Assembly (NCBI GenBank): GCA_964016885.1
Contig: OZ024741.1
Span: 42,904,001 to 42,968,000, forward strand
Source: Eledone cirrhosa
Lineage: Eukaryota
Length of the DNA stretch: 64,000 nt
Reading direction: 5' to 3'
Under the pieces are notes generated by a model. The model worked only from the letters and a program-made list of their open reading frames with translations, was not told the DNA's origin and searched no databases. This document shows positions 14,041-46,258 of this stretch, piece by piece (position 1 is the first letter of the stretch; every line of letters begins with the position of its first letter). The translations under genes and the position numbers were made by a program.

Positions 14041-14156
14041 TATACGTGTGTGTGTATGTGTGTGTGTGTGTATGTGTGTGTGTGTGTGTGTGTATGTCTG
14101 TCTGTCTTCGTATTGCTGAAATTGAAAGACAATTTTCTACGATACTTGTTGTAACG
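14041..14156 (+). repeat. Left copy of the direct duplication bracketing the retroelement cluster
   Basis: tatac-(GT)n-ttcgtattgctgaaattgaaagacaattttctacgatacttgttgtaacg; recurs at 46133-46258. Confidence 0.85.
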
Positions 14157-14178
14157 TAGAAACAATTATTATTATTAT

Positions 14179-14295
14179 TAAATCCCGTCAAGGTTAACTT
14201 TGCCTTTCATCCTTACGGGGTCGATAAAATAAAGTACCAGCAATGTACTGGGTAGTTGCTGGCTTTGTGCTAAAAGTAGAAGTAATTATTATTAA
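14179..14295 (+). mobile_element. 5'-truncated SINE
   Basis: Begins inside the B-box region; core and tail present. Confidence 0.8.
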
Positions 14296-14299
14296 TATT

Positions 14300-17200
14300 A
14301 CAGTTGCATTTATCTTGCTTTATGTTCATACGAGTTATCACCAAGTCACAACCAGTGACCTCAAGAGACAACAAGGTCCGCCATGTTCAAGAAAGAACAT
14401 ACATACACACACATGCATCTTTAGGTGTTTAGACTTGTGATGTACTTATACTGACAGAATCTTCCGTAGTATATGGGAAGTTCCCATTAGTACTATCTTT
14501 TGTATTTCTCCTATACGCGGGTTTACTGGGATGTGCGATAAATAATCATTAGACCCCTTAGGTATCATTCCGAGAGCGCCTACAACCACTGGTATTGTTT
14601 TAGTCCTCAATTTCCACATTTTTCCAATTTCTATCTCCAAGTCCTTATACTTGCTCAATTTTTCAAATGTTTTTATAGATACATTCTTGTCTATTGGAAC
14701 GGACATATCAATTAGCAGGCATACCCTCTTTTTAAAGTCCTTCAGTATTATATCAGGTCTATTTGCATCTATTTTTCGGTCTGTTTGGATGCTAAAGTTC
14801 CACAAGATTGAGATGTGATCTTTTTCAAGTATGGGAGGTGGTTGATGCTCCCACCAATTCCCACCAGATGGGGCAGGTCAAAATGCTTACACATTATCCA
14901 ATGTATGTATTGTGCAGCTCTGTCATGTCTGTTTAGGTATTCGGTTGGAGCTATAGGACTGCACATTGAAATTATATGATCAATGGTCTCTGGTTGTTTT
15001 TTATATACACGGCATAATGGGTTGCGTCCATTTTTTTTATTATGTTGGCTTGGTAATTTTTTCTTGTGCTGATATAATCAGTCCTTCAGTCTCCGATTTC
15101 AGTCCAGAGGATGCCAACCACTGATGGGTTAAAGTTTTGTCAACATCAGGATTGTTAGCTCGCTCTGGGTATTTTCCATACAGAGGCTTTTCTTGCCATT
15201 TCTTAGCCAGTATCTGTAGCAGTTATTTCTTTGCAGTTACTTTTACCTGCTTTGCTTTTTCTGTGTTTTCCATTTCAGCAGTAAATGGGACTGCCGAAAT
15301 TTGTAGTCCATTACTGTATCTTTGTGCATCTTTTGTAATGGAATATGATCTTTTGATGCTTTCGTGTTTCAACACGAGTTTGATCATCCAATCATGTGAT
15401 TCCCTTAGATATGTAGATAATCCAATTGTTGCAGTTTTCAACGCAATATCTAACTGGATTAACCCACGTCCTCCTTCTTTCCTAGGGAGATATATTCTAT
15501 CTGTATCTGCTTTAGGGTGATTGATATATTCTGTGCATGGTTAAGAATTTTCGAATTTTTGTATCGAGCCTACGGATCTCTGTGCTTGACCAGTTGATCA
15601 CATTTTAACTGTAGGTTACTACTGGTATGACAAACGTGTTTATGGCATCGATCCTATTCCTTGCATTCAATTCCGTACTTAAGATTGCTGTTACTCTGCG
15701 GTAACATTCCTTCCTTATCTTTTCCCTCATTGTCGAGTGCTAGATTCCGTCTCCTTCACAAACACCTAGATATTTGTAAGTTTCCTCTTGATCAAGTTCT
15801 CTTATCACATTCCCCCGATCAAGATTAATGTCTGAACTTTTCAGCAGCTTTCTTCTGGTGAACGTTGCTTTGGCGCATTTATCTTGTCCAAACACCATTT
15901 TAATGTCATCACTGAACTGCTCCACAGTGGATAATAGTGGACAATTGTTCATCCTTTTTTGCAAATTGTTTCAGGTAATCCATGTAGAACAAGTGATTAA
16001 TGGTTTTGTCATAGACTTTATATCCATGTTTTGTTTCATTGAGCATTTTACTTAATGGTATAAGTGCGATGCAGAATAAAAGCGGTGATAAAGAGTCACC
16101 CTGAAAAATTCCACAATTAATATTAACTTCTCCAGCTTCCAGTGATTCATTTTCACTATTCAAAAGGAGTGTCGTTTTCCATGGCTTCATACTGAATGAC
16201 AAGATTCCTGACAACGGGAGATATTTTGAAAATCTCTAAACATTATTCAATCCAACTGTGTAACAAACTATCGAATGCTTTTTTATAATCTATCGAAGCA
16301 ATTGATAGATTTTTGTGTCTATTATGACAATCTTCCAGTATCATTTGTTAACCAAAAGCTTATCCTTACAACCATATGAGCCATAACTTTTCTAAGTTTA
16401 GTTTGTTCAACATGGTCACCTACTTTGTAGTTTCTTAAAATGTCTATGTCAGATCGGAGAAAGTTTATTTGGCGATTGATGTTCTCTTGCCAAGTAGATT
16501 TCTTGTGGGAATTCCTTTGTTTTTTCATTTTCACTCCACATAAGTGAGTGGTGACTTTAGCCGATGCATAATAGAGATGATTTAAATCAGTAATGTTTAG
16601 TTTGTTTGTGATGATAATGTTTTTGAGAATTATGTTAGTGTTATGTATTATCTTTTGGTTCTGTTTGGAGTTCTGGATCTTAGGGAGGGTGTCAGATTCT
16701 TTCATTTTCATCCATTCGATCATAATTTCATCCTTCAAGTTGGCAAGTTCATTCTCATTCATTTCCTTATCATTTACGATCTCATTGTTTTCATTTTGAG
16801 TTTCATCTTGAGCATGCACTCCCTCCACTTTTTCGATCCTTTGTTTAATTTGTTCTGTTGTCAGTGATTCTGCTACAACCCTGGGATTCGAAGTGTTACA
16901 ATTTACCTCGTTTTCACTGACACATGTTTCATTTTCCCTTCGCTGACTTTGTGCTAATAGCCAGATCTGATCAATTTCTATATCAGTTAGTAACTTTTTT
17001 TTTACAATATTTCTTCGTATATTGACTAGTTTGTTACTGTCAATATAGCCTCTGTTTTCGGGATGTTTCTTTTTCCAGTTGATATATATCTGTTCTGTAT
17101 TGGGTCTATTTGATGGGTAGTACAAGGACTTCTTTATTATCTTTCCTTGACCATTTTTCTCTCTTTTTCTTTGGATTTCTTGGTGGTGAGCATGGAGGGC

Positions 17201-18418
17201 CAACCGTAGGAGTATTCCGGCTATGGGAGGTCTCCAGCTCCGAAGTGATGGGTAGGTTTGAACCATTAGCTGATTTTTCGACCCCAGTCTGGTTCCTCTC
17301 TGACGGACGCGGCCCTTTTTGACAAGGGTGACGCCCGATCCGGTATGAGATTTTATCATTTGACATTTACTTTATTTTGTCGCGTTTTATCCTTAACGGC
17401 CAAGGGGTAATCATATCATGCTACCACTTCTAGGACGAGTGTCAACCAAGACTAGAGGGGTCGTCCTCCACTAGAGACACGGCTATTATCCGCCGGCCGC
17501 CATCCCGGTATTTCTTGGTCACGGGGTTTTCTTTTTTGTTGTTTTTTAAATTGTTATTATCATGAGTGGTTCCTTAATGTGTGCATTGCGAGGCTTATGA
17601 ATGAAATTATTATTAATAATATAATATATTTTTTGCTGAAGTTGCCTGTTTTTGTTGTTGGCTATGTCGGTGGTGGTGCTGGGGCTTTTTACATTGTTGG
17701 TGGGGAAGGGGGGAGTCAGCAGTCCCATAGTCGTTGACATTTTACCGAGTCACTAAGTCAATCTATTTATATCTTTTGCTAGCCTCTCCCTTGTCTAGTG
17801 ATACCGCCACCTTCCTCTTTCTTAAGTTAACAGAAGGTAATAGGGGAAATAGTGGTGGTAGCAATGAAGGAGTGGTGGCAGCGGTGATGGGATAGTGGTA
17901 GCAATGATGCATGGAGTGGTGGCGGCGGTGACTATAGTGATGGCGTTGTCGTTACTCAATGTTGTTGAATATACTCTAGTAGTATGCGTTTGTTTGATCT
18001 GTGTATCTATGCGGTTTGTCGCGTATGTTTAATATATGTGTTGACATATTTCCATAATATTTGAATTAAACATTTTGAGAAAACTTGAGATACAATAATA
18101 GTAATTATTATTATGCTGGGACGCCATGCTTTGCAGCAAAGAGTTACGGCCCTTTATGGTCTGAGTTCAAATCCCGACGAGGTTAACTTTGCCTTTCATC
18201 CCTACGGGGTCGATAAAATAAAGTACCAGTAATACACTGGGATAATTGCTGGCCTTGTGCCAAAAGTAGAAACAATTGTTATGCTGGGATTGGTGGTGGT
18301 GAAATTGCCATTATCTGGCTGTTGTATTTAGTGTACACAGAAGGGTGAAGTGATAGGTGGTGTATCTAGTTTGTGGTGTTGGTGAGATTGCTGTTATTTG
18401 GCTGTTCTGTATAGTGTA
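14300..18418 (-). mobile_element. Dong/R4 family B copy B1, near full length, decayed, internal deletion at ~16385
   Basis: N-terminal KREKWSRKDN; RT GIFQGDSLSPLLF and HLFYMDYLK; RLE RHD, NRPDIIL, LIDMSVP, KLSKYKDLE; GGT-rich upstream region; 5' end abuts a TAA tract. Confidence 0.85.
18119..18280 (+). mobile_element. SINE inserted in the B1 5' region with a short target-site duplication
   Basis: Flanked by ttatgctggga on both sides; absent from the homologous block at 30395-30410. Confidence 0.85.
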
Positions 18419-18439
18419 TTATTGTTATTATTATTGTTT

Positions 18440-21400
18440 TTTTTCAACGTTTTACCTCGATTTCAACCGTTCTAAACCTTTTATTCAAGTTTTAAATTTG
18501 ATAAAAGTTTAGAAGAAGTGACCCACCTAATACAGGGGTTCACTCGTAAATAATACAGCACCACTTTACGGGGTGTCGCATTCGTATTTGTGTAAAAATA
18601 TATATTTTTTTGAAAAAATTTCAACATGGATAACACAAGAAACAGAGAGAGCGCTGTCAGACAACACAGAGAGAGGGAGACTTTATCAGCATGTCAACAA
18701 GACAGCGTTCCAGCGGAGGTAAATATAAACGAAAATATTACAAAGGAAAAGAAGATTGTTACAGATTTAAAATTAACAAATATTTCTAACACAAACAACA
18801 CCAACAATAACACCAACAACAACACCAACAACAATAACATCAGCAACAACACACATAACAGCGGTAAAGTCGAGAACGACAATAACAATGACAATAACAA
18901 CAGTCACAACAATAATAGTAGGAACAGTATAAACAAAAACAACAATAATAACAACACCCACAATAACAGTAACAACAGCAACAGTATCAACGAAAACAAC
19001 AACAACACCAACAACTGTACCAACGAAAACAACAACAATGACACCGATAGCTGTAATAGCGATCTCAGCACCACCAGTAAGACCAGTAGCGGCAGCAATA
19101 GTGGTGCTACTGAAAAGGGGACCATTTCTTTTGCAGGTGTCGCCCGAAATATCGAGACAGTGTTAGCCACAGAGGAGGAGATGGCAGTCGCAAAGGCCAT
19201 GGTGACAAGAAGCGCCAATAGAGTCTCCCTGAAACCTCCACCCGATTTTTTCAAGGACCAGCAGTTACGGACGGTGACTTACCGCACCGTAAGCAAACTC
19301 TCACATCAGGTGAAGAGAGCCAGGAAGGCTCAAATCCAAAAGGCCTTGGGGTGCGACTGGGCACGCAAAACCCACATCACCCGAGGCAGAAAGTACGCCA
19401 CAGTAGACGTACTTTTCGCCACCCCCCAGGAAGCAAAGTCTCACTCTTTGGAAACCCTAAAGAGTGAGGAGATAATCTTGGTGCCCTCCTACTGCGGGCA
19501 GAAAATTGTGAGGGTCAAAGTAACCCAGGTCCCACCCGAGGTGCCCATACCTTGGCTGGGTGCGTCTGTCCTTGCTGGAATTGAGAACATGGTCTGCTGC
19601 AAGTAGAAAAAATAGGGAGAGAGAACTGGTCAGGTATAGGCATGAAAATGCTTATACAAACTGACCAGGAATGTATCGACGCTATCCCCGATATCATAGA
19701 CATCGAGGAAGGACTCTAACTCCCTATAAGTGTAGAAAGAAGACGGCCAAAATGTTATCTCTGTGGGTCGAAGGGTCACCTCAGGGCCTTTTGCCCGCAG
19801 AAGACAGCGAAGAAGGCCCCTCTCCTTCCAATACCTGCTACGCTACTACCAATAGCCCCTTCCACGGTGAGTAGGAGGGCAACGTCCGTAGCACCCGTAC
19901 CAAGGCCACGGACAACTAAAGCAGCATCATCAGTGGCGGCAACACCAATAGCTACATTTGAAGTAGCTACAGCAGCAACAAAAATGCCGAAGAGGGCTCC
20001 ACTACCACCACCAACAGCCGTGGAGTACATACCCCTCCCAGACGCCAAAGAATCCGACATGGAGTTTGAGGCGGGAGTGAAGTGGTAAACGGTCTGCTAC
20101 AAAAAAACAAAAAACAAAAACCCTTAGATTCACCCTCCAAAAGCGAAGGCATACAAAGACGGGTAAAGGCAGCAAGGAAACTTGCAGCAACACCACCCCC
20201 ATCACCACCACAAGCACCACTGACAACAACAACCACACCACCACCAGCATCACCAAAAACACCAACAACGCAAACACAACAAGACACACACATCAAACAG
20301 CAACAAGAAGAAAACAGCAACAAAATCACCCCTCCCCCCTAAAAAGTACACAGACATAAACATGGCAAAAAAAGAACTCATACAATATATAAAGCAGCAC
20401 ACAAACATCACAGAAAAAAACTACTACACCCCACCAACACCAAGAACTCTCCCGACAAACATAAGCATCATCGAAATCTCAATAGAACAGTACAAACAAT
20501 TAAAACAAAAATTCCTCAACGCAGTTGGAGACTTCAGAGTGTCGGTTACCAAGAGGATATACACTGACATCCTCTTGGAAACACCCATGACCAGCGAAAG
20601 GGATGGTTCAACTGTCCCTTGACCACACGATCAAGGTAAGTGACCCTTTCTCACTTTCCCCGTTTCTCAGCCAACATTGCCGTACTCAGAATAGGCAGTA
20701 TAAATGCACGTGGCCTGGGGTCATCTTGGAAGCAGAGTCACCTGCTCAACGACCTCAGGTCACTAAACATAGATGTGGTGGCCATCAGTGAAACCAGAAT
20801 CTTCGAAGAACAAGCCTTCGCACCGATCTTCGGCGGCTACGATGTATACGCATCTCCCAGCTGTCCAGGATCGGGGGGAGGGGTTGCCGTACTATTTCGG
20901 AGAGGCTTGGATCTCGGGATACGGGCCATCTTCCTGGACCTAGAAGATAAGTCGGTGGTGCTGGACGTGACCGGCAGCGAAGGCAATGATTTCAGGCTAG
21001 TAGTCGTCTACGCCCCAACAGGGGCAGGACGGCCAGATTTCTTCAGAGGTCTAGAGACCTTTCTTGGAACATCCCGCTTTTTAGTGTTAGTGGGCGACTG
21101 GAACGGGAGGAGGGTGCAAGAGCCTCATCAACCTGCTCAGATGTTTTGAACTGCCTGACAGGTACCGAGTGGATCACCGAATGTGCCAATGTGGACATGT
21201 ACAAACCGCATCGGGTCATCCAGATCGTATCTAGATAGCGTATTCTGCAGAGAACTCGATAAGGCTAGTATAAGTTATCCACAATTTAAAATAGTCGACT
21301 TCACAGACCACAAATTTGTGATCTATGAGATCGAGATAGACAGACTTCATAGGCAAGGGCCTTGTTAATGGAAGCTGAACGCGTCTTTCCCAGCGCGCAA

Positions 21401-24136
21401 AGCCTACAGAGACCGGATTAGCGTATCAGTTAAGCGGGCGTTGACGGGACCGGTCGTCAACAACCGGTGGTGGTTCGCCCTGAAAAGGGCAATTAAAGTA
21501 GAGTCGATTAGGTTTAGCAAACGAGTAGAGATAGAGGAAAATAGAGTAGAGGGAGAGCTAGTCAGAAAGCTAGAGGCGGTGTTTGTGACAGGCATCGCAA
21601 CCGACGTACTTGCGGCGAGATTGGCACTCGACCAATTCTTCAACGCAAAACACGAATGCTGCGTTGTCAGAGCTAGAGCGCTTGCTCTGAAACACGAGGG
21701 GACAAAAGCCGTCCAATGGGCCCGGGTGCCAGTGGCGCGACGTGGCAACAAAGCCACAATTCGATCTTTGTCTGACCAAAACGGGTGCGAGATGCTCGAA
21801 CCCGAACGGATGTGTGAAGCTTTTCAGTAGCACTTTGCTGAACCGATCGGGAGCAGCGGCGGCCCGGATTGGGGCATGGATTTCAGTGCATACCTGGACG
21901 TACTGCCTCAGCTCTCGACGACCGCAGCACATTGTTGCAAAAAGCCAATAACAGCCGGTGAAATACGGGAAGCGTTGGCTAACTGCACATGGGGTAAATC
22001 GCTAGGTTTGGATGGTCTGCCCTACGAGCTTTATGCATTTATGCCAGACTTATTCGGTGACCTCTTTGCAGACGTCTACTGCAACTGGCAGCAGAACGGG
22101 AGCATTCCCAGTTTTGTGAGCCGGGGAGCAGTGGCGCTGCTGAGAAAAGACCCGAACAAGGGGGATGTTATCGATAATTTCAGGCCCATAACCCTGCTAA
22201 ACGCAGAGTTCAAGATTTTGGCCAAGGTGGTAGCAACGAGTTTGGCGCTTGTCGTCAAGGGTCTGGTGGGAGAGGCGCAGACATGCGCCATTCCTGACAG
22301 ATCCATACACGACAACCTCCACCTCATGCGATAAATCATAGACAGGTTGTTTAAGGAACCTGGCACGGGTGCGGCCTTGATCAAGTTGGATCAATCCAAA
22401 GCATTCGATTGGGTCGACCATCGGTACTTGGCGGCGGTCCCCGAGGCAGCCGGTTTCGGGCCCGTTTTCAGGGGTTGGATCACAGCAATGTACAGCGACA
22501 TCTACTCAGTTGTGAGGGTGAACGGTCACCTGTCGCAGCCGTTCAGCATCATGCGCTCAGTCCGCCAGGGTTGTCCCCTCTCGACCCTCTTGTACGTATT
22601 GGCTCTCGAGCCGTTACTGCACAAACTGGGTGCGATGAGGGGCGTCCCACGCGAACCAGGATGCGGGAAATCCGAGTCGGCTTACGCTGACGATGTCACC
22701 GTGGTGGTGTCGAGCACCTGACACGTCCAGATGCTCGGCACCGCTCTCAAGGAATACGAAGCGGTGACAGGAGCAAAAATAAACCAGGAAAAGTCGGTGA
22801 GCTTGCAGCTCAGCACCTTGAGAGGCAAGTCCATGCCGTCCGACAGCGTTTTAGGGCGTTGGATGGACGGACCGGTTAAATTGCTCGGGGTCTTGTTCGG
22901 ACCGGAACTCCAGATGGAGAAAAACTGAAACGAGGTGACGAGCAGGGTGGCCACCCTCACCCAGAAATGGGCCGAGAGGAAGCTGTCCCTGAAAGGCCGG
23001 GTGGAGTTGGCGAATTCGTACATCGCATCCGTCATCTGCTACCGCCTCACCGTTGTCCTTTGCTCCAGCCCAACTCTCACCAAAATGGAGCGCCTCCTCT
23101 TCCGCTTTTTGTGGAAGGGACGCGCTCCCATGTTCAGACGATCCATCTGCTGACAACACCCGTTGCGTGGTGGACTGGGAATGCTATGGCTGATGATGCG
23201 CAAACATGCGCTGAGGCTGCGACATCTCTGGTGCTTCCTTGATGGTGAACAGGTGTGGTCGCCGTTCGCCAGGCACGTTTTACCACAGCTCGTGTCCTTG
23301 ACGGAGCTGCAGTCCTGGGTCATAAAACGACCAAGGAATAGCGCTTGGAAACTGGAATTCTCCAGGCGCTCACTGCCCTCTGCCAGCTGGGCACAGTATC
23401 GGTGGAACATCCACCTCGGCGTTCTATGGAGGACTAGTGGAGGGGAAAAGCGACGACATTCTCATTCAGTGCCCGAGCATTGCTGACTTGTGGAGCTATG
23501 TCGAACTGTTCCTGGCGCGTGTGGGACTGATCCGGTTGTCGACTAAGTCAATTGTGCAGAGGGTCTCACCGTCTTCCTTCGAGGAGGAAGGGCACGCAGT
23601 TTTCATCTGCCTGGTGGCCATGGGGAAAGAGATTGTGTGGTGGACAAGGTTAAAAGTGTTAAAGACAGACACTTTCCTCTTCGGCGAATCCCTAATTAAC
23701 TTTTTCAAGTTTCACTTGAAGAAGAAAATCAGGGTGGAGAGGCAAGTGCTGCCTTCTAGCAAGTTTGTTGAAAGGTGGGTGAATGTAGCGAGAATGGTCC
23801 GAGTGAACGGGACCACTCTGAATATACGTCTGTAGTTTGAGAGATGGAAACATTGAGATAGTGCACTTGCCCTGGTGGTCAGGGTGGCAGTGGTCAATTG
23901 TGTGGTTGTCGCCATGAGTAACCCGCGGAGGTTTCCCCCCTATTGGGGAATTTTTCATTGTTTCAATTTTCATTTTTATTGTTTATATATATATATTTCT
24001 ATGTTAATTTTTTTCTTTTTCTTATATAAATAATAAAAATATTTACACGCACAAAACCCACATCGTAACGTCTTGTACCGTCCTGTGCCGTCTGTAATGT
24101 TTTTCTTGATGTCAGCCCTTGTGGCCAATAAAGAAA

Positions 24137-24138
<2 letters not shown>
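18440..24138 (+). mobile_element. Tx1-clade LINE copy T2, full length, decayed
   Basis: ORF1 (18626-20639, Asn-rich N-terminus, frameshifted); ORF2 APE INARGL/SETRI/VGDWN/SYLD/TDHK, RT NFRPITLLN, SVRQGCPLS, AYADD, C-terminal Cys region; ATT repeats on both flanks. Confidence 0.92.
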
Positions 24139-24168
<30 letters not shown>

Positions 24169-24174
24169 GTTATT

Positions 24175-24468
24175 GTTATTCCTTGAATCTCAGTCATTGA
24201 TGTTGGTTAACTGGAAAGTCCGTTGGATTGAATATCAAGCCACTACCTGCAGCCTCAGATATTCAGGACGTATCGGAGGGTTCTTGCTGTTCCAAGCAAG
24301 CATGCCTTTTGAAGCGTTCCAAAAAGCGTGAAGGGGCCGATTTTCTTTAACCATCCCTGGAAACTTTTGGAGATAGTCCCCAGTGCGCCTATGACAATCG
24401 GGATCACTTTGACTTCATGGCAGTTCCAAATCCTTTTCACCTCCCACTTTAGGTCCTGGTATCGGTTA

Positions 24469-24470
<2 letters not shown>
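24175..24470 (-). mobile_element. Dong family A ~300-bp 3' fragment
   Basis: RYQDLKWEVKRIWNC...LRYVLNI* plus 3' UTR, between two (ATT)n tracts. Confidence 0.9.
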
Positions 24471-24513
<43 letters not shown>

Positions 24514-25752
24514 GTTTTTTGAGTCTCAGTCATTCATGTTATTTAACTGGAAAGTTTGTTGAAATGAATATCAAGCCGCTACCTGCAGCCTCAGATATTC
24601 AGGACGTATCGGAGGGTTCATGCTGTTCCCAGCAAGCATGCCTTTTGAAGTGTTCCAAAAAGCGGGCTGGACTAACTTTCTTTAACCATCCATGGAAACT
24701 CTTTGAGATAGTACCTAGTGCGCCTATGACAATCATAGTGCGATTCTGACTTCATGGCAGTTCCAAATCCTTTTTACCTCTCACTTTAAGTCTTGGTATC
24801 GGTTAATTTTCTCCTTCTCCTTTTCTTACACTCTCGTGTCAAATGGGCAGGTTACATCTACAATCAGGCACGATCTTTTTTCCTTGTCCAAAACCACCAT
24901 GTCAAGTCTATTGTGTTCCAGTTTCTTATCCGTCTGTATCCTAGAATCCTATAGTACCTTCACCTGTTCATTTTCTATCACCGACTCTGGCTTATGCTCA
25001 TACCACTTCTCAGAATTAGGTAAATAGTTTACTTTGCATAGGTGAGGGTGGATCACTCTGCCTACCACACCATGTCTCCAGCCTTTATAGTGAGTCTGGG
25101 GTAGGTGTTTACACTCTGATACAATGTGAGCCACAGTCTCTCTCTCTCTCCACAGATCCTACACAGTAGGCTAGCCTCCACCTTGTAAATATGGTGTTTC
25201 ACCCACTTCGTTTTGAGTGCCTGCTCCTGCGCAGCCATTAGCATTCCTTCTGTAGCCTTTTTAAGTTCTCCTCTTTTTAACCAGTTCCATATCTGTGGAT
25301 CTCAAAATTCAGTTTTCTCAAACAAGGTACTATGAAGGGATTTTTCATGAAGGTTGGTCTTCCTCCTTGTTGTTATTTCCTCCTTGGAATTCCCTGGTCT
25401 ATTTTCCTCTCCCTCAGTACAATTCTGAGCATTGGCTTCTTACTATCAGTCACGTATTTGTGTAGGTTGTTTTTCTTCATCTGAACACAGTCCTCTATGC
25501 TGATAAGACCTCTTCCACCTTCAGATCTCCTTAAGTAGAGTTTATCGACATCACTCCTCTTGTGGAACATGTTGTAGATAGTCAATAGCTTCCTAGTTTT
25601 CCTATCCATTTCTTTTTGTTCAGCAACATTCCATCTCAGAATTCCCGCACTGTACCTAATAATAGAGACTGCTCGGGAATTTACTGCACTTATGGATTTC
25701 CTACTGTTCAGATGTGACTTTAAAACGCTCCTTACTCTCTGAATGTATTCAG
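24514..25752 (-). mobile_element. Dong family A 3' fragment, decayed
   Basis: LYLRRSEGGRGL, AAQEQAL, CRIC..AHIVSEC and RLE pieces. Confidence 0.9.
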
Positions 25753-25772
25753 ATCAGATTATTATTATTATT

Positions 25773-25820
25773 ATGTACTGGGTAATTGCTGGCCTTGTGC
25801 CTAAAATAGAAACAATTATT
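25773..25820 (+). mobile_element. SINE tail fragment
   Basis: atgtactgggtaattgctggccttgtgcctaaaatagaaacaattatt between ATT tracts. Confidence 0.75.
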
Positions 25821-25844
25821 GTTATTATTATTATTATTAGTGTT

Positions 25845-30855: not shown

Positions 30856-30857
<2 letters not shown>

Positions 30858-33391: not shown

Positions 33392-33392
33392 C

Positions 33393-33442
<50 letters not shown>

Positions 33443-33444
33443 GT

Positions 33445-36400: not shown

Positions 36401-37160
36401 GAAACTTGTCCTAGCCCGTCAGCATTCATCTCCTCAGTGGCCGTATCTCTGTTCCAGGTATTATTTATCTCAGTATTCAGATCATTGTCTGCTTCGGGTG
36501 GTTCCTCCGTTCTCAGGACCTCTTCACCTTCATTTCCCACTGGCTCGCTTGTCTGGCATACTACACCCGCCATCTCCAAGCCATTCTCTCTGCTCAGTTC
36601 CTCCAGTTCCAGCTCGCTCATCCACCCATTAGTTCTTATTACCCGAGCCTGCCCGGCCAATTTTTGTTCATCTAATTTAAATAAACCAATCTTGTTCCAG
36701 ATGTTATGCATCCGTCTCCTGTAGCCCCTCTCCTTGGGGTTACTTTTCAGGTAACATTGCATAACAGTTCTATTCAATTCTTTCGTCCAGTTGGTTCTGG
36801 CCCCTTTCCTTCTTCTCCTTCCTCCAACATCAGCAGTATTTGGTTGACAGTCAGGTTCCTGCTGCTGAGCCAGGGGGCACCTGTTGGCTGAGAGTCTGTC
36901 ACATGACGTTCTAGTCTCCATTTCACCGTTATTCGAACTGTTTATGTTCGATATTTAAACACTCTTATCGAGGATTGGCGAATGTATGGTTACATAGCCA
37001 TCTGTGGATCCGCCATTCCACTTGGCCCTTGTGTGGCATTATCACCACGCTGTATACGAACACACATAAACAAACAAACACACAGGCAGAAAGGGCCCCC
37101 AAAATGAATAAGCATAAGTTTCATTGTAATGTAGTGTTCGAATGTCTGACTTAGTTTTTG

Positions 37161-37165
<5 letters not shown>
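33445..37165 (-). mobile_element. Dong family A copy A2, complete ORF region with a few stops
   Basis: ORF segments 36049-36921, 34759-35916, 34297-34749, 33700-34218; (ATT)n flanks. Confidence 0.93.
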
Positions 37166-37223
<58 letters not shown>

Positions 37224-40200
37224 GTTGTTATTCCTTGAATCTCAGTCATTGATGTTGGTTAACTGGAAAGTCCGTTGGATTGAATATCAAGCCACTACCT
37301 GCAGCCTCAGATATTCAGGACGTATCGGAGGGTTCTTGCTGTTCCAAGCAAGCATGCCTTTTGAAGCGTTCCAAAAAGCGTGAAGGGGCCGATTTTCTTT
37401 AACCATCCCTGGAAACTTTTGGAGTTAGTCCCCAGTGCGCCTATGACAATCGGGATCACTTTGACTTCATGGCAGTTCCAAATCCTTTTCACCTCCCACT
37501 TTAGGTCCTGGTATCGGTTAATTTTCTCCCTCTCCTTCTCTTGCACTCTCGTGTCGAACGGGCAGGCCACATCCACAATCAGACACGATCTTTTTTCTTT
37601 GTCCACAACCACCAGGTCAGGTCTATTGTGTTCCAGTTTTTTGTCCGTCTGTATCCTAAAATCCCACAGCACCTTCACCTGATTGTTCTCCATCACCGCC
37701 TCTGGCCTATGCTCATACCATTTCTCAGAATGTGGTAAATTGTTTACTTTGTACAGGTGCCAGTGGATCACCCTGCCCATCACATCGTGTCTCCAGCCCT
37801 TATAGTGGGTCTGGGCTAGGTGTTTACACTCGGACACAATGTGAGCCACAGTCACCTCTCTCTCTCCACAGATCCTGCACAGTGGGCTAGCCTCCTCCTT
37901 GTAGATATGGTGCTTCAACCACTTCCTCTTGAGGGCCTGCTCCTGCGCAGCCATTAGCATTCCTTCCGTAGCCTTTTTGAGGTCTCCTCTTCTCAACCAG
38001 TTCCATGTCTGTGGATCTCTAAATTCAGTTTTCTCAGAGAAGGTACTATGAAGGGATTTTCCCTTAAGGCTGCTCTTCCTCCTTGATGTTATTTCCTCCT
38101 TGGACATCCCCTGGCCTACTGTCCCCTCCTTCAGTACAGTTCTGAGCATTGGCTCCTTACTATAGGTCACGTATTTGTATAGGTTGTTTTTCTCCATCTG
38201 AACACAGTCCTCTATGCTGATAAGACCTCTTCCACCCTCAGATCTCCTTAGGTAGAGTCTATCGACATCACTCCTCTTGTGGAACATGTTGTAGATAGTC
38301 AATAGCTTCCTAGTCTTCCTATCCATTTCTTTTTGTTCAGCAATATTCCATCTCAGAATTCCCGCTCTGTACCTAATAATAGACACAGCTCGGGAATTTA
38401 CTGCGCTTATGGCATTTCTGCTGTTCAGATGTGACTTCAATACGCTCCTTACTCTCCGAATGTATTCAGTTCTTAACAATTCCTTCATTTTTTTGTTCTT
38501 TATGCCATCAGCCTCCAGAACGCCCAAATACTTGTATCCTTCCTCAGAGTCAATTTCCTTTATCATCTCACCTGTTGGTATCTGGATCCCGTTACTTCTG
38601 CTCAACCTACCCCTCTTCATCACAATGACTCCACATTTACCAATACCAAACTGCATACATATATCACTGCTGAAAATACGGACAGTGTCAACAAGCACAT
38701 CCAACTCCTTCTCACTTTTCCCGAAGAGCTTAAGATCGTCCATGAAGAGGAGGTGATTGATGGTAAGCTCTCCCCTTCCCAACTTGTATCCTGCTCTCAC
38801 TTTTCGCAGCATAATGGTCAAGGGCATCAGGGCAAGGACAAACAACAGAGGGGACAGGCTATCTCCCTGGAAGATACCTCTCTTGATCTTCACGCTTCCC
38901 AAGGATACTCCAGTTGATGTCAACTCTGTCTCCCAGGACCCCATACTCCTGCCTAGCAACTGTCTGATGTTATCTGCCACCCTGAAGATCTCCAGGCTTT
39001 TGGTGATCCAGGAATGAGGCACCATGTCAAATGCCTTTCTGTAGTCTATCCATCCCATGGCAAGATCAGTGTGTCTCCTCCTGCAATTCCCCATTACCAT
39101 CTTATCAATAAGTAACTGGTCCTTTGTACCACGTGACTTCTTTCGGCATCCTTTCTGTTCGTCCGGTAACAAGTTGTTTGTGTTGAGGTGATGGTAGATT
39201 TCCTCAGACACAATGCTCGTCAACAGTTTCCACATTACGGACAGACATCTGATAGGTCTATAGTTGGTAACATCATTACCCTTGATTCGGTCTTTCATTA
39301 TCAGAACTGTGGTACCTTTTGTCAACCACTCTGGCACCTCACCCGACACCAAGCAGTCATTGAACATGGCCGTCAGCTTCGGGTGGAGGGATGTTAAATG
39401 TTTAATCCAATACCCCTGCACACCATCTGGGCCTGGTGATTTCCAGTTGGTTAGTTTTTTGGCCTGCCCCTTAAGAGTTTCAACTGTGATACTCAAATCA
39501 GTTTGTTGTTGTGCCTGCTCACCGATCTCCCTCTGTACTGTCTCAATCCACCCTGCCTGGGCATTGTGTCTAACATCCTGATCCCATATTCCTCTCCAGA
39601 ATGTTTTAGTTTGCTCCGCCCCAGGGATCAAGTCGTTGCCTCTTTCTTTCCCCTCAAGCTGTCCAAACAGCATCTTCTGGTTGTTGTCGAACATGCGGTT
39701 CTGTTTATACTGACTGACTCTGTTCTCGTATCGCCTGATTTTTGTACTCTTTGCTACAATGCGTTGCTTCAGTTCCTCTATGATAATATTTAGCTTTTTC
39801 CTCCTAGTTTTGTATTTTATTTCCAGTCTATTTTTAGTGCCTATGTTTTTTAGTGTCCCATTCAGTAGTGACTCAAGCTTTCCTATGTCATTTCTCATTT
39901 CCCCGATTTGCCCACTCAGTCGCTTCTTCCACCACGGCTCTGCTCTTTCTTGTCTGTTGTTTCCTCTCGCTTTTATACCAAGTAGTTTCCTCACCGTATT
40001 TGCTGTTGCTTTGAGGATATTGTTGCACTGGTGAAGGCTCCTCGCCTCAAGGTATGGGATGACTTTGTTTACCTTAGCTGTTGTTTCTTTTAACTTTTTC
40101 CTGTCTACAAATCTTAGCTTCATAGGTCTCCCACTATCATTGTTCAATTCATCTACCACTAAATTTAGGATGTCAACCGAATCTTGTCCTAGCCCGTCAG

Positions 40201-40279
40201 CATTCATCTCCTCAGTGGCCGTATCTCTGTTCCAGGTATTATTTATCTCAGTATTCAGATCATTGTCTGCTTCGGGTGT
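37224..40279 (-). mobile_element. Dong family A copy A4, 5'-truncated, uninterrupted ORF
   Basis: Nearly identical to A2, arranged head-to-tail across (ATT)n. Confidence 0.95.
37307..40207 (-). CDS. R4/Dong-clade RT + CCHC zinc knuckle + restriction-like endonuclease (966 aa, N-terminally truncated)
   Basis: KSPGPDG, NYRPI, WIDYRKAFD, GIFQGDSLSP, FMDD, YKYLG, CRIC-x8-H-x4-C, RHD, RPDLVV..IVDVACP..K..RYQDL. Confidence 0.93.
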   Translation of the reverse strand: MNADGLGQDSVDILNLVVDELNNDSGRPMKLRFVDRKKLKETTAKVNKVIPYLEARSLHQCNNILKATANTVRKLLGIKARGNNRQERAEPWWKKRLSGQIGEMRNDIGKLESLLNGTLKNIGTKNRLEIKYKTRRKKLNIIIEELKQRIVAKSTKIRRYENRVSQYKQNRMFDNNQKMLFGQLEGKERGNDLIPGAEQTKTFWRGIWDQDVRHNAQAGWIETVQREIGEQAQQQTDLSITVETLKGQAKKLTNWKSPGPDGVQGYWIKHLTSLHPKLTAMFNDCLVSGEVPEWLTKGTTVLIMKDRIKGNDVTNYRPIRCLSVMWKLLTSIVSEEIYHHLNTNNLLPDEQKGCRKKSRGTKDQLLIDKMVMGNCRRRHTDLAMGWIDYRKAFDMVPHSWITKSLEIFRVADNIRQLLGRSMGSWETELTSTGVSLGSVKIKRGIFQGDSLSPLLFVLALMPLTIMLRKVRAGYKLGRGELTINHLLFMDDLKLFGKSEKELDVLVDTVRIFSSDICMQFGIGKCGVIVMKRGRLSRSNGIQIPTGEMIKEIDSEEGYKYLGVLEADGIKNKKMKELLRTEYIRRVRSVLKSHLNSRNAISAVNSRAVSIIRYRAGILRWNIAEQKEMDRKTRKLLTIYNMFHKRSDVDRLYLRRSEGGRGLISIEDCVQMEKNNLYKYVTYSKEPMLRTVLKEGTVGQGMSKEEITSRRKSSLKGKSLHSTFSEKTEFRDPQTWNWLRRGDLKKATEGMLMAAQEQALKRKWLKHHIYKEEASPLCRICGEREVTVAHIVSECKHLAQTHYKGWRHDVMGRVIHWHLYKVNNLPHSEKWYEHRPEAVMENNQVKVLWDFRIQTDKKLEHNRPDLVVVDKEKRSCLIVDVACPFDTRVQEKEREKINRYQDLKWEVKRIWNCHEVKVIPIVIGALGTNSKSFQGWLKKIGPFTLFGTLQKACLLGTARTLRYVLNI

Positions 40280-40280
40280 C

Positions 40281-40313: not shown

Positions 40314-40314
<1 letters not shown>

Positions 40315-43300
40315 GGCGACCTACGCAGTTAATCGTATTATCGTGAGCTCCGCAAAGGTTTGTTAATTTCAGTTGTTTAAAATTGCCATTTATGGAACAT
40401 TTTTATTGTTAACTGTATATAAGTGAACATACATTGATTTCTGAAAAGGACACTCATAAAGATTGGGGCCTTGAGCCCAAAGTTTAAACTTTTTATAATT
40501 ATCAAACCAAAAATATTTCTTGGAAAAATCATGGCCGACTCAGAGCTGAACCCAGTAGCTGAGAGCCTTCCTCACAAACTAACACCTCACACCGACACCA
40601 CCATTGTAAATACTACTAGGTTTGCCAACACTAAAAAGATAAGCAATAGCAATATTTTTAATTTGTCTCAGGCAGACATTCATTTCCGGCCATTACCAAT
40701 GACTGCGGTGTTGAAGCCGCCACCCCCACCACCACCACAGCGGCAACAGAAACAAAAGAAAATAAAAATTAATTATTATCGTGATATGGAAACGAATTCA
40801 GCCAAAATGAACTCTTCCACACCGAACACCACTAACGCCAGCACCACGACAACTGAAACTAAAATTAACAATAACAAAAATAACGATAACAACAACAGCA
40901 ACAATGAGAATAAGAAAACCCTGTCTTTTGCCAGAGTAGCAAAAAAAGTGCGAAGTATTCCAACTAACTCAGGAGGAATTAGAAGAAGCAAAAAAAATGG
41001 TAAAGAAAGATGGGTACAGGGTCAGCTTCACCCCCCCCCCCCCCCGCCTAATAAAATGGAACATCGGCGCCTATGCACCGTGTCTTATCGGACGATTAAC
41101 ATAAAATCGCACCGAGTGGAACGGGCATCCGAGTCCCAAATCCAAAAAGCTTTGGGACATGTGTGGGCAAAAAAACCCACATCAGAAATGGGCAGAAATA
41201 TGGAACCGTAGACGTGTTCTTTGAAACACCACAGGAGGCCAGAGAACACTTCATGGCCCCCATTAAGAAGTGACGACTTCACACTCGTCCCAAGCTATTG
41301 TGGCCAGAGACTCGTAAGATCAGGGTGAGTCACGTACCACCGGCCATCAAAATTCCCTGGCTAATAGCTGCCGTCCTCGCCGGCATCGAAGCCAACACCA
41401 AGATAAACGAAATAGCGAAAGAAAAGCAGGAGAACTGGTCCGGATCTGGGATGGAGCTCCTGATCCAAGCGGACCACAAACACATTGAAGGGATCCCAGA
41501 GGTAATATACCTCACTGACGGCAGCCACCTCACCGTAATCGTCGAGGGCAGAAGGCCTAGGTGTGTCGTTTGTGGTGAAGGAACCCACCTAAGGGCTTTC
41601 TGCCCTCAGGCTAAAAGGTTGAGGCCACCTCTCTTAACCAACTCAGTGACTCAACCATCAACACCACCAGCCGCAGAAATGGCAGCAACAACTGTAGCAG
41701 CAACAACAGAAGCAAATGTAACAGCAACAACCCCAGCAACAGTAGCAAAACCAACACCACCACCACCCAACGCGCCAGAACTAGCACCAACGCCTACACC
41801 ATCCACCACGCCACAACCAACACCAACGCCTGTGGAGGATTTTCCACTCCCCGACCTATCGCAACTGGAGATAGATTGTGACGACGAGGAGTGGGAAACG
41901 GTATCAGGAAAAAAGAAAATAAGAAAAAGAAACCAAAAAAGAAAAAATTCTCTTCCTTCCCCCTCCAAAAACAAAATACAGAGGGAAACAAATAAACTAT
42001 CAAACAAAAAAGTTAGGACAGCTATGCCACCATCCACACCAGCATCACCAACCCCATCACCACAAACACCAACACCATCACAATCATTAACCCCAACACC
42101 ACCATCAACAACACCACAAAAGTCACCAAAAAGCGAAACAGAAACAAACCCACAACAAACGCAGACAAAACAAAACACCCCAAAACGATACACACTATAC
42201 AGCATTAAATTTGAACAACAACCAATTATTACACCACATCCAACACAACACCACCATCACAGAAAAAGACTACACAACAACCCAAAAGTTCACACCACCT
42301 CCAAACATACAGATCACTCGCATCAGACAGAAAACGTACACGACACTGAAACGAAAATTCCCCAAAGACATCGGAGACTTCCGACAGGCACTCTCCAGGA
42401 GGATTTATAAGGACATCTTTCCAGAGGAGGCCACGAGCAGTGAAAAGGATGGAGAAACCATCCTTCCTCTACGAGAAGTAAGGTAAGTGGTCTTTCCCAT
42501 CTTTTCCACTCCTTTTCAACATGACCTCACTCGGAATAGGCAGCATAAATGTGCGTGGCTTGGGGTCGTCATGGAAGCAGGGCCACCTGCTCCAACGACC
42601 TCAGGTCACTAAACATAAATGTAGTGGCCATCAGCGAGACCAGAATCTCCGAAGCACGGGCCTTCGCACCGATCTTCGGCGGCTACGATGTGTACGCATC
42701 TCCCACCCGTCCTGGATCGGGGGAGGATATTCTGTCCTTTTTCGGAGAGGTTTGGATCTTGCCATACGGGCCATCTTCCTGGACCCATAAGGTAAGTTGG
42801 TGGTGTAAGAAGGTAGTGTTAGTGGGCGACTGGAAAGGGTTCTTAGATGCACGCTGGGACTGTTTGGGATTAGCGGATATGGGAGGAGGGTGCAAGAACC
42901 TCACCAACCAGCTCAGGAGTTTTGAACTGTCTGACAGGTACCGATTGGATTTCCCGAATGTGCCAATGTTGACTTGGACAAATCGCATAGGGTCATCCAG
43001 ATCATATCTAGATAGAGTATTTTGTAGGGAAATAGATAGGTCTAGCATAGGCTGTCCACAATTCAAGATAGTCAGCTACACGGACCACAAATTCGTGATC
43101 TGTTGTTTATTTAGATAGGCTTCATAGACGATGATCCGGCTACTGGAAGCTAAAGGGCATCCTTACCAGCGCGCAAGGACTACAGAGGCCGGATTAACGA
43201 ACTAGTTAAGCGGGCGTTGACGGGGATCATCGTTAACAACAAGTGGTGGTTTGCTCTGAAAAGAGCGATTAGAATAGAGTCCATTAGGTTTAGTAATGCT

Positions 43301-46068
43301 TTAGCAATAGAGAAAAATAGTGCAGAGGGAGAACTAGTTACAAAATTAGACGAGGCGCTTAGCAAAGGCATCGCGACCGACGTACTTGCGGCGAAATTGG
43401 CCCTTGACCAATTCTTCAAATCAAAGCACGAAGGCTGCGTTGTCATAGCTAGGGTGCGTGCTCTCAGACACGAGGGCATGGAAGCCGTTCAATGGGCCCG
43501 AGTGGCGGAGGTGCGTCGTGGCAACAAAGCCACGATCCGGTCTATGGTGGACCACGACGGGCGCATGCTACTCGATCCCGGGAAAATATGTGAAGTTTTT
43601 CAGCGACATTTCGCCCTGCTGTTCGTGGGCAGCGGCGGGCTGGATCGAGGGATGGACTTTAGTGTCTATCTCGACGGACTGCTGCGGCTCTCGGCCACTG
43701 AGGCGGAGTGTTGCGAAAAGCCGATAACAACCGCTGAAGTACGGGAGGCAATGACTGGCTGCACAGGGGGTAAATCGCCTGGTTTGGATGGTCTGCCCTA
43801 TGAACTTTACGTACAGATGCCAGACATGTTCGGAAGCCTCTTGGCGGACGTCCACTGCAACTGGCAACAGAACGGGAGAATTCCCACCTCTGTGAGCCGA
43901 GGAGCTGTGGCGCTGCTGAGAAAGGATCCGAACAAGGGGGATAACATACATAATTTCAGGCCCATAACTCTGCTAAACACACAGTTCAAGATTTTGGCCA
44001 AGGTGCTAGCAAAGAGGTTGGCGCTTGTCGTTGGTAGTCTGGTGGGAGAGGCGCAGATGTGCGCCATTCCCGACAGTTCCATACACGACAACCTCCACCT
44101 CATGCGATACATCGTAGAGAGGGTAGCTAGGGAACCTGGCACTGGTGGGTCCTTGATCATTTTAGCTCAGTCGAAAGCTTTCGATAGGGTCAACGATCGT
44201 TACCTAGCGGCAGTCCTGAGGGCGGCTGGCTTTGAGCCCGTCTTCAGAGGCTGGATCGCTGCCATGCACAGCGATATCTGCTCTATGGTGAGAGTGAACG
44301 GTCACCTTTCGGAACCGTTAAACATCATGCGCTCGGTCCGCCAAGGATGTCCCCTCTCCTCCCTCTTGTACGTATTGACTGTCGAGCCATTACTGCACTA
44401 ACTGGAGCCGTTGAGGGGGGTCCCGCGCGAACTAGGATGCGGAAGATCCGTGTCAGAATATGCGGACGATGTCACCGTAGTAGTGTCGAACGCCAAACAC
44501 ATCGAGGCGATCAGCGCTACAGTAAAAGGATACGAAGCGTTGACAGGAGCAATGATCAACCAGGAAAAGTCAGTGGGCCTGCAGCTCGGCACTTGGAGAG
44601 GCAGGTCTATGCCGTCCAACAGCGTCGTCGGGCGCTGGACGGACGAACCGGTTAAATTGCTCGGGGTCTGGTTCGGTACGGACCTCCAGACGGACAAAGA
44701 CTGGGACGAGGTGACGAGCAGGGTTGCTGCTCTCACCCAGAAATGGGCCGAGAGGAAGCAATCCCTGAAAGTCGAGCGGAGGTGGCTAACGCGTACATCA
44801 CGTCCGTCATCTACTACCGCCTGACCGTCGTACCTTGTCCTAAGCCCCTCCTGACTGCGCTGGAGCGTTTGCTCTTTCGCTTTTTGTGGAAGGGACGCGC
44901 TCCGATGGTCAGGCGGTCTATCTGCTGTCAACACCCGCTACATGGAGGGTTGGGCATGCCGTGGCTGATGATGCGCAGACACGCGCTCAGGCTACGACAT
45001 CTCCACCTCTTCCTCGACGGTGATCAGGTGTGGTCGCCGTTTGCTAGACACGTATTTCCCCAGCTCGTCTCCTTGACGGAGCTGCAGTCCTGGGTCAAGC
45101 GAAGACCGAGAGGGAGCGCTTGGAGACTGGAATGTCTTCAGGCGCTCACAGCCCTCTACCAATCGGGCAATGTGATCGGTGGAAACTCCACCTTAGCGTT
45201 CTATAGAGGATTAGTGGAGGGGGAGAGCGACGACGTACTTGGAGAAACTCTAGCCGTCTACGAAAATCAACTAGCCAATCTCTTCGGAAGAACTTTCGGG
45301 CCGGGGTCTATGGACAACTTCCAGAAATCCCTGGCCTGGCAGTGCTACCGAGGAGCTTTACCAGTTCGGGATAAACTCTACAGGCATGGACGTGACGTCA
45401 GCTGTGCATGTCCGAGATGCGCGCAGGGCGACGAAACCGTCCTGTACGCACTCGTCCAGTGTCCGAGCATTGCTGACTTGTGGGTTTATGTCGAACACCT
45501 GCTGTCACGTGTAGGACGGATCCAGCTATCAGCTGAATCCATCGTGAGGATTGCCTCGCTCTTTACCTTTAGCCGGGAAGGGCAGGCAGTTTTTATCTGT
45601 CTGGTGGCCATGGCGAAAGAGATAGTATGGTGGATGCATCTGAAAGGGCTGAAGATGAGCACTTACCTCTTCGGTGATGCCCTGATTAACTTTTTCAATT
45701 TTCAATTGAAAAGGAAAATCAGGGTATAGAGGGAAGTGCTCTCTTCCCAGCATTTTGTTGAAAGATGGGTGAGAGAAGTAAGTATGGCCCGAGTGAATGG
45801 GCCTACTCTGAGTACGTATCTGTAAATTAAAGGTGGAAAACTGGGAGAGGGCACTTGCCTTGGTGGTCAGGGTCACTGTGGCCTTTTACTGGGCTTTTTC
45901 CACAAATGTCCCTCGGAAGTCTCCCCCCTATTGAGGAATTTTTTCTTTGTTATTTTATTACATCCTCTGTTTTTTACACGCAGAAATGCCCATTTGTACC
46001 GTCCTGTATTGTCCTGTACTGTCCTTAATGTCTACTTTATGTAAACCCTTGTGGTTAATAAAGAAAAC
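40314..46068 (+). mobile_element. Tx1-clade LINE copy T3, full length, decayed
   Basis: ORF1 with CVVCGEGTHLRAFC knuckle and Pro/Thr-rich tail; ORF2 APE-RT (EYADD) and CPRC..ETVLYAL..C; pure (ATT)n on both flanks. Confidence 0.92.
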
Positions 46069-46077
46069 ATTATTATG

Positions 46078-46124
<47 letters not shown>

Positions 46125-46132
46125 CATTATTA

Positions 46133-46138
46133 TATACA

Positions 46139-46210
<72 letters not shown>

Positions 46211-46258
46211 CGTATTGCTGAAATTGAAAGACAATTTTCTACGATACTTGTTATAACG
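46133..46258 (+). repeat. Right copy of the bracketing direct duplication
   Basis: 46209-46258 matches 14107-14156 at 49 of 50 positions and has the same (ATT)n-tatac-(GT)n prefix. Confidence 0.85.

What the first reader, a model, noticed from the sequence alone, without database searches (positions are those of the whole stretch)
14041..46258. Whole 32-kb cluster bracketed by a ~120-bp direct duplication (giant TSD?)
Seen: (ATT)n-tatac-(GT)n plus a 50-bp non-microsatellite segment occurs at 14041-14156 and 46133-46258 (49/50 identity). The left copy is followed at once by tagaaacaattatt, the last bases of the SINE tail; the right copy continues into unique DNA. The SINE at 18119 has the same geometry with an 11-bp TSD starting in the ATT tract. 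Established: very long TSDs are rare but known (R9 of bdelloid rotifers, some RTEs). Inference: a tiny founder insertion with a ~116-126-bp TSD seeded a new ATT tract that then absorbed 32 kb.
Basis: partly seen in the sequence, partly recalled or inferred. Interest (0 to 1): 0.7.

Follow-up and report, generated by a model that had tools for sequence, protein, structure and literature searches.

The report
Long target duplication around retrotransposon chain
A 120-base stretch, whose 50-base non-repetitive part occurs only here in the genome, sits on both sides of 32 kb of stacked jumping genes; it was likely doubled when a tiny scrap of a short jumping repeat inserted with an unusually wide cut, and the fresh ATT tail it left likely became the landing pad for the later elements, a rare natural case of a known kind of insertion accident.

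Summary
The duplication is real: a 50-mer at 14107-14156 and 46209-46258 (49/50), with TATAC-(GT)n; its 44-base core occurs exactly twice in 3 Gb. It does not bracket the whole cluster: 4 kb of older elements of the same families lie to its left (10033-14007). Best reading (0.6): a SINE stub (TAGAAACA plus ATT tail) inserted with a 116-130-bp target-site duplication (TSD), and later insertions filled the new ATT tract. Support: the junction has 5-bp microhomology (TAACG) to a common SINE subfamily that the neighbouring SINE does not belong to; such stubs recur with 11-21-bp TSDs; one full-length SINE elsewhere has a 144-160-bp TSD (1 of 446; usual median 16 bp); elements left of the duplication are older (branch lengths 0.05-0.15) than those inside (0-0.052). 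Against: 1/50 divergence is low for that age (P 0.03-0.19); short-read contigs showed only the right copy; no empty allele could be tested. Rivals: plain tandem duplication, late repair copying, misassembly. Large TSDs are known from L1. The scan noted ATT chains, and one long TSD, elsewhere in this genome before. Modest interest.

The parts
10033..12360 (+). Old Tx1-like LINE fragment, part of the older chain left of the duplication
   Evidence: 70-81% to other Tx1 copies in the window; terminal branch 0.15
12350..12534 (+). SINE with ATT tail (older chain)
12527..13576 (-). R4/Dong-like family C 3' fragment (older chain)
   Evidence: terminal branch 0.050-0.083
13583..13836 (-). R4/Dong-like family D fragment (older chain)
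   Evidence: terminal branch 0.063
13837..14007 (+). SINE whose ATT tail was the likely target; not of the AACG subfamily
   Evidence: best identity 90-91% to AAAG-type copies, 85% to AACG-type copies
14026..14156 (+). Left copy of the duplication: (ATT)n, TATAC 14041-14045, interrupted (GT)n 14046-14106, 50-mer 14107-14156; start within ATT is ambiguous
14152..14156 (+). TAACG: 5-bp microhomology between the target end and the AACG-subfamily SINE 3' end (GTGCCTAACG-TAGAAACA)
14157..14179 (+). Inferred founder: SINE stub TAGAAACA plus (ATT)5
   Evidence: comparable stubs
14180..14300 (+). 5'-truncated SINE
14285..18418 (-). R4/Dong-like family D copy with internal deletion
   Evidence: terminal branch 0.021
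18119..18283 (+). SINE inside family D 5' region, 11-15-bp TSD starting in ATT
18430..24140 (+). Tx1-like LINE (APE endonuclease, ATT tail), degenerate
   Evidence: Exo_endo_phos E=3.8e-8; terminal branch 0.041-0.047
24136..24471 (-). Family C 3' fragment, young
   Evidence: 98.6% best match
24472..25755 (-). Family C 3' fragment, among the oldest enclosed
   Evidence: terminal branch 0.049-0.052
25773..25826 (+). Short SINE fragment
25815..30787 (-). Family C, probably full length; 29545-30787 is its 5' region
   Evidence: RVT_1; 5' region adjoins C body in 11 of 11 other loci
30841..33392 (-). Family D, 5'-truncated
   Evidence: RVT_1, zf-RVT; terminal branch 0.012
33393..37164 (-). Family C
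   Evidence: RVT_1; terminal branch 0.006
37165..40280 (-). Family C with a 990-aa open frame (RT, CCHC, RHD, PD..D motifs)
   Evidence: terminal branch 0.011
40314..46070 (+). Tx1-like LINE with ATT tail
   Evidence: RVT_1, zf-RVT; terminal branch 0.041
46123..46258 (+). Right copy of the duplication: ATT end, TATAC 46133-46137, pure (GT)n, 50-mer 46209-46258, then single-copy DNA

Best explanation
The 120-bp repeat is likely an abnormally long target-site duplication, made when a SINE RNA was likely reverse-transcribed for only about 8-13 bases beyond its ATT tail at the ATT tract ending at 14041, and the new pure ATT tail then likely attracted the 32 kb of Tx1-like, R4-like and SINE insertions now lying between the copies. 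Steps: (1) shown: this SINE inserts at ATTA with short TSDs, and four families insert in each other's ATT tails genome-wide; (2) inferred: a Tx1-type APE endonuclease nicked the ATT tract of SINE 13837-14007 and priming started there; (3) inferred from the junction: the short cDNA ending in TAACG annealed to TAACG about 120 bp downstream, at a distant second nick or break, and fill-in doubled the interval; (4) inferred from ages: later insertions split the new ATT tract and pushed the copies 32 kb apart. It is a rare accident of the insertion machinery, not a programmed long stagger.
For: Unique 44-mer, two copies. Geometry matches plus-strand priming: duplication starts in ATT and ends at the stub; 66 of 81 called SINE TSDs start ATTA. 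AACG/AATG-TAGAAACA(ATT)3 pattern has 3,466 matches; among 30 fetched loci GTGCCTAACG is a recurrent SINE end, giving a perfect TAACG microhomology. The neighbouring SINE differs from the stub at one base, ends its body differently and is closer to other subfamilies. The interrupted T-rich middle of the left ATT tract has no match with up to 4 edits between the copies, as expected if only the last ATT units were doubled. Stubs cut at the same point recur: visible TSDs at L046 (21 bp), L157 (18 bp) and L164 (12 bp by eye); 7 of 18 other TAACG-TAGAAACA sites are AACG stubs directly after an ATT tract, L264 with an 11-bp duplication. L297 carries a full-length SINE between 144/160-bp copies that start at ATT and end at the SINE 5' end (10 mismatches in 144 columns, one 16-bp indel); other copies of that repeat lack the shared distal flank. 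Ages: left of the duplication 0.050-0.152, inside 0-0.052. L1 gives TSDs over 100 bp in up to 10% of HeLa events (PMC5223499, passages).
Against: If the duplication predates the oldest enclosed copies (d about 0.03-0.05), 3-5 differences are expected in the 50-mer; 1 is seen (P = 0.19 to 0.034); microsatellite differences soften but cannot date this. Both steps are rare: long TSD 1 of 446 copies (95% CI up to 1.2%), and none of the roughly 20 stubs seen had a long TSD within 1.5-2 kb. Small tandem duplications are common here (about 10-18 per 400 kb by eye). Assembled contigs of three short-read runs of one sample showed only the right-type copy and no left junction. L297's duplicated block is mostly a dispersed repeat (801 candidates), so that example carries a caveat. 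0 of 10 truncated Tx1 copies showed a non-ATT TSD.
Confidence: 0.6

Rival explanations
1. Plain tandem duplication: a unit of about 170 bp running from the last 8 bases of SINE 13837-14007 through its ATT tail, (GT)n and the 50-mer was doubled by slippage or microhomology-mediated repair with no RNA; the second ATT tract then filled with 32 kb.
For: Gives the same order of parts in one step, because the bases upstream of the left ATT tract are themselves a SINE tail. Two-copy near-tandem duplications of 45-250 bp are common: about 10-18 isolated cases counted by eye among 209 rows in 400 kb of random sequence, most other rows being satellite arrays. Imperfect microhomology exists at both breakpoints. 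Fits the age layering equally well.
Against: Needs the one-base difference in the neighbouring SINE tail and all interruptions of the left ATT tract to arise afterwards or be lost, and a chance perfect TAACG match to a different SINE subfamily.
Confidence: 0.18
2. Late repair-mediated copying: a break in an existing SINE chain was repaired by priming on the long ATT tract at the chain's right edge, copying TATAC-(GT)n-50 bp and returning through TAACG to a resident AACG-type SINE tail; or a large tandem duplication was followed by an ATT-to-ATT deletion.
For: Explains the low 1/50 divergence and the TAACG match. Repair duplications in human average 162 bp and often show microhomology (PMC2671141, passages). 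Gapped local duplicates exist in this genome (L058, L019, L068).
Against: Most donors in that study lie within 5 kb (824 of 1,136) and junction deletions were 1-15 nt; here the donor would be up to 32 kb away and must be exactly the edge tract among about ten. It does not predict that older elements lie left and younger ones right of the left copy. At least four differences between the copies argue against a very recent event.
Confidence: 0.14
3. Assembly artefact: an empty haplotype and a filled haplotype were joined in tandem.
For: The left junction was absent from contigs of three runs, whose contigs ran unbroken through the shared 44-mer.
Against: Those contigs show two right-flank haplotypes, and both have the right-type sequence (pure GT upstream, 2 differences from the left copy), so the left copy is not one of them. 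Depth was 3-5 and contigs show presence, not absence; a short path between two high-copy repeats is easily pruned (my inference). No N in the window. An assembler would not create a match to a non-local SINE subfamily.
Confidence: 0.06
4. The 50-mer is a dispersed repeat or chance match beside microsatellites.
For: None beyond the repeat richness of the genome; the DNA search warns that it skips very common words.
Against: Exact pattern count 2, control 0; DNA search 2 candidates, 2 scored.
Confidence: 0.02

Closest known systems
Large TSDs of human L1 insertions (PMC5223499, passages; bioRxiv 10.1101/2024.12.14.628481, passages; PMC7058536, passages)
   Same: APE-type priming at the normal target, distant second nick or break, duplication over 100 bp as a minority outcome; short microhomology at the 5' junction; small tandem duplications described as large TSDs.
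   Different: Here a germline, fixed-looking event in an invertebrate; the insert is a SINE stub of 8-13 bases; the target is ATT; the new tail was then filled by 32 kb of other elements.
R9 of Adineta vaga, 126-bp stagger (PMC6895275, passage; the original paper was not held)
   Same: Similar duplication length.
   Different: R9 is an rDNA-specific restriction-like-endonuclease element whose long stagger is its rule; this SINE's TSDs have median 16 bp and long ones are about 1 in 446. The R4-like families here cannot have made it: on their strand the first nick would fall at 14157, outside any TAA tract.
Repair-mediated duplications (Pace et al. 2009, PMC2671141, passages)
   Same: Size of about 120-170 bp, microhomology, sits inside transposon sequence.
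   Different: Donor usually within 5 kb; here the second copy is exactly the chain's edge and ages are layered around the left copy.
Microsatellite-targeting LINEs: Dong (TAA)n, Kibi (TC)n, Koshi (TTC)n (PMC3812793, passage)
   Same: The enclosed families sit in ATT/TAA tracts (23 of 24, 24 of 24 and 24 of 24 copies; the tails themselves supply part of this signal).
   Different: Four families share one tract on opposite strands; clade names Tx1 and R4/Dong rest on domain content and recalled motifs, no tree against reference elements was built.

Membership tests
Target-site duplication of a target-primed insertion | Direct repeat of otherwise single-copy target DNA on both sides of the insert | tested here: met
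Target-site duplication of a target-primed insertion | Repeat starts at the element's nick motif next to the 3' tail | tested here: met
   starts in ATT; 66 of 81 SINE TSDs start ATTA
Target-site duplication of a target-primed insertion | Inserted bases come from element RNA rather than local DNA | tested here: inconclusive
   TAACG match to a non-local subfamily and a one-base difference from the neighbour favour RNA, but only 8 bases are informative
Target-site duplication of a target-primed insertion | Empty allele or orthologue holds one copy | not testable with these tools
   no relatives held for this genome; runs of one species label only
Target-site duplication of a target-primed insertion | Copies at least as diverged as twice the age of the oldest enclosed element | tested here: inconclusive
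   1/50 observed, P 0.03-0.19
R9-type programmed long TSD | Long TSD at essentially every insertion of the family | tested here: not met
   median 16 bp, 80 of 81-29 bp; 1 long case in 446
R9-type programmed long TSD | Made by a site-specific restriction-like-endonuclease element at its target | tested here: not met
   junction is a plus-strand SINE tail; R4-like copies are on the minus strand with their tails on the left
Repair-mediated duplication (Pace et al.) | Acceptor flanks are contiguous parts of one interrupted element | tested here: not met
   left flank is a complete SINE tail and right flank is a second SINE tail; needs an extra deletion
Repair-mediated duplication (Pace et al.) | Microhomology at the junctions | tested here: met
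   ATT on the left, TAACG on the right
R4/Dong clade (enclosed families C and D) | RT followed by CCHC zinc knuckle and PD..D endonuclease; TAA target | tested here: met
   motifs read by eye; RVT_1; 33% identity between C and D; clade name recalled, no tree
Tx1 clade (enclosed plus-strand LINEs) | Two ORFs, N-terminal APE endonuclease, RT, C-terminal zinc finger; placement in the Tx1 branch | tested here: inconclusive
   APE, RVT_1 and zf-RVT present; phylogenetic placement not tested

The most novel reading that the evidence does not exclude
The ATT-targeting Tx1/SINE machinery of this genome makes 100-160-bp target duplications in the germline at about 0.2-1% of insertions, which would mean hundreds to thousands of such events genome-wide, and the copies act as dated brackets around chains that then grow by tens of kb from a tail laid down by an insert of a dozen bases.
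Probability: 0.4. Interest if true: 0.5.

Novelty: new member of a known kind. Interest (0 to 1): 0.3.

Why it matters
If right, it is a natural germline record of a distant second-strand cut, an outcome mostly described from cultured or tumour cells with human L1, and it shows that an insert of about a dozen bases can reset a landing pad that later takes 32 kb. The brackets separate an older from a younger layer of the chain, so they give an internal clock for chain growth. It is one neutral locus with a known class of mechanism and no sign of function, so the interest is modest.

Tried and rejected
Dispersed-repeat origin: rejected. R4/Dong elements as makers of the duplication: rejected on strand geometry. 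L179 as a second long TSD (83 bp, 77%): rejected, because the same two-unit block flanks a SINE at L301 too, so it is an internal repeat of a dispersed element. L144 (minisatellite), L167 (tandem amplification of a SINE piece), L202 and L327 (SINE pieces) also rejected; 71 of 80 gapped candidates were dropped as dispersed repeats, which could hide true long TSDs made of transposon sequence. under-called short TSDs through a masking fault and was redone; one search was an earlier run on 275 copies (51 calls, 11-34 bp). Read evidence covers only 14104-14164: inconclusive; the RAD run had no reads there. Tx1 TSD lengths could not be measured: 10 of 24 copies had both ends in the fetched DNA and none showed a non-ATT duplication. 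Literature: no paper held all of 'long target site duplications, LINE, truncated, cleavage, second strand'; a search for Tx1/ATT/Dong/nested gave only two conference books; some searches gave the papers cited; none of the listings or passages seen describes long TSDs for an octopus SINE, but most subscription papers are not searched. No supplements were read.
Full report
Observation. The window reads TATAC-(GT)n-50-mer at 14041-14156 and 46133-46258. The 50-mers differ at one base. The 44-base exact core occurs twice in the 3.0-Gb genome with 0 control matches, and a longer query from the right copy finds only these two places. The (GT)n parts differ: interrupted on the left, pure on the right. 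The repeat is real and not dispersed.

Anatomy. Self-comparison, Pfam and translations show a chain of four families joined by ATT tracts: plus-strand Tx1-like LINEs with ATT tails, a plus-strand tRNA-headed SINE with an ATT tail, and two minus-strand R4/Dong-like families (C and D, 33% identical in the C-terminal part). Clade names rest on domains and recalled motifs. The animal is likely an octopus: my recall of these repeats, the earlier notes, and PMC13282606 (passages), which lists Dong-R4 and L1-Tx1 among recently active families. Such chains are ordinary here: ATTATT lay within 25 bases of the 3' end in 23 of 24 Tx1, 24 of 24 D and 24 of 24 C copies, often abutting another family, and the scan had noted chains elsewhere. 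The chain starts near 10022, so the left copy lies inside it, after 4 kb of older elements.

What made the duplication. Upstream of the left ATT tract is itself a SINE tail, so the structure parses two ways: ATT-started TSD plus an 8-base stub, or a tandem duplication starting at the SINE tail. Four tests lean to the first. (a) A SINE subfamily ends GTGCCTAACG-TAGAAACA (pattern with AACG/AATG variants: 3,466 matches; contexts; against 17,294 for the AAAR form with four ATT units), so the target's TAACG is a perfect 5-base microhomology; the neighbouring SINE is not of that subfamily (best 85% versus 90-91%) and differs from the stub at one base. (b) The interrupted middle of the left ATT tract is not found between the copies with up to 4 edits. 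(c) Stubs cut at this point exist. Of 55 sites lacking the usual upstream bases I examined 50 loci; about 13 had no SINE body directly upstream, most others being SINEs with small deletions; L046 and L157 show 21- and 18-bp TSDs and L164 a 12-bp one by eye. Of 18 other TAACG-TAGAAACA sites not preceded by CC, 7 are stubs directly after ATT. (d) Long TSDs occur. Among 446 3'-complete SINE copies (40 random 10-kb stretches plus pattern- and similarity-selected loci and the window, so not a random sample), 81 had a callable TSD: median 16 bp, 80 of them 9-29 bp, 66 starting ATTA. A gapped search for 40 bp or more left one accepted case, L297: a full-length SINE flanked by 144/160-bp copies from the ATT tail start to the SINE 5' end. 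That block is largely the end of another ATT-seeking repeat, but the two copies share private bases, the same truncation point and a distal flank that other copies lack. Rate 1 of 446, upper bound 1.2%.

Timing. Terminal branch lengths against fetched relatives were 0.050-0.152 for the three LINE fragments left of the duplication and 0-0.052 for ten enclosed segments (only 40 candidates per search were scored, so these are upper bounds). This layering fits duplication first, fill later. The 50-mers should then differ at about 6-10% of sites; 1 of 50 has probability 0.19-0.034. At least three further differences in the microsatellite part ease this but are not a clock. The test is inconclusive with mild tension.

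Against. Small tandem duplications are frequent (about 10-18 per 400 kb by eye), so the plain tandem reading has a good prior; my rough frequency estimate put the two near even before tests (a) and (b), and that estimate is uncertain by an order of magnitude. Contigs from three short-read runs of one sample held only the right-type copy, in two haplotypes, with no left junction; depth was 3-5 and such contigs show presence only. No orthologue was available.

Mechanism and comparison. A distant second nick giving TSDs over 100 bp is known for L1: at most 10% of events in HeLa and most events in NER-deficient cells (PMC5223499, passages); small tandem duplications at L1 sites are described as large TSDs (bioRxiv 10.1101/2024.12.14.628481, passages); 1-5-bp microhomology marks L1 joins to distant breaks (PMC7058536, passages). 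R9's 126-bp stagger (PMC6895275, passage; PMC12203849, passages) is a rule of that element, not an accident, so this is not R9-like in kind. Repair-mediated duplication (PMC2671141, passages) is the rival for a late origin. Dong, Kibi and Koshi targets are from PMC3812793 (passage). An earlier scan note reports a 67/97-bp duplication at an RTE in this genome (not checked).

Verdict. Real duplication; likely a large TSD from a SINE stub (0.6), followed by ordinary ATT-chain growth. New natural member of a known kind; interest 0.3.

Noticed in passing
L297 (reverse strand, about 1560-2060; G000:C1 near 24.212 Mb): Full-length SINE with a 144-160-bp duplication starting in ATT; the duplicated block is the 3' end of a further minus-strand repeat family that sits after SINE tails (801 candidates, 6 of 6 fetched copies follow a SINE tail).
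   Followed up: partly
window 17792-18418 and 30084-30542: R4-like families C and D, only 33% identical in protein, share a 5' module at about 89% DNA identity; L014 shows the same module on a D copy. Possible 5'-region swap.
   Followed up: partly
L046, L157, L164, L262, L264, L265, L268, L269, L277, L278: SINE stubs of 8-13 bases plus ATT tail are a recurring insertion class that repeat annotation would miss.
   Followed up: partly
L179 and L301: Two copies of one dispersed element with an internal 80-bp two-unit repeat each carry a different SINE at the ATT between the units.
   Followed up: partly
L167 2248-2540: A 96-bp unit made of SINE head, SINE 3' part and tail is amplified in tandem at 100% identity.
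   Followed up: no
window 1314-2849: Near-perfect palindrome, 708-bp arms at 97%, 123-bp spacer, between TA tracts.
   Followed up: no
window 51246-57015 (-) and 47467-49964 (-): A Tx1-like copy in the opposite orientation (88-93% to the 40314 copy) and another RT element (RTE-like by recall) lie outside the chain.
   Followed up: no
G000:C8 39.1-40.1 Mb (L238-L240, L243): Five near-identical Tx1-SINE-R4 chains within 1 Mb, probably segmental duplicates of one chain.
   Followed up: no
L157 (G000:C11 near 5.747 Mb): The stub insertion with its TSD is present twice in inverted orientation about 2 kb apart.
   Followed up: no
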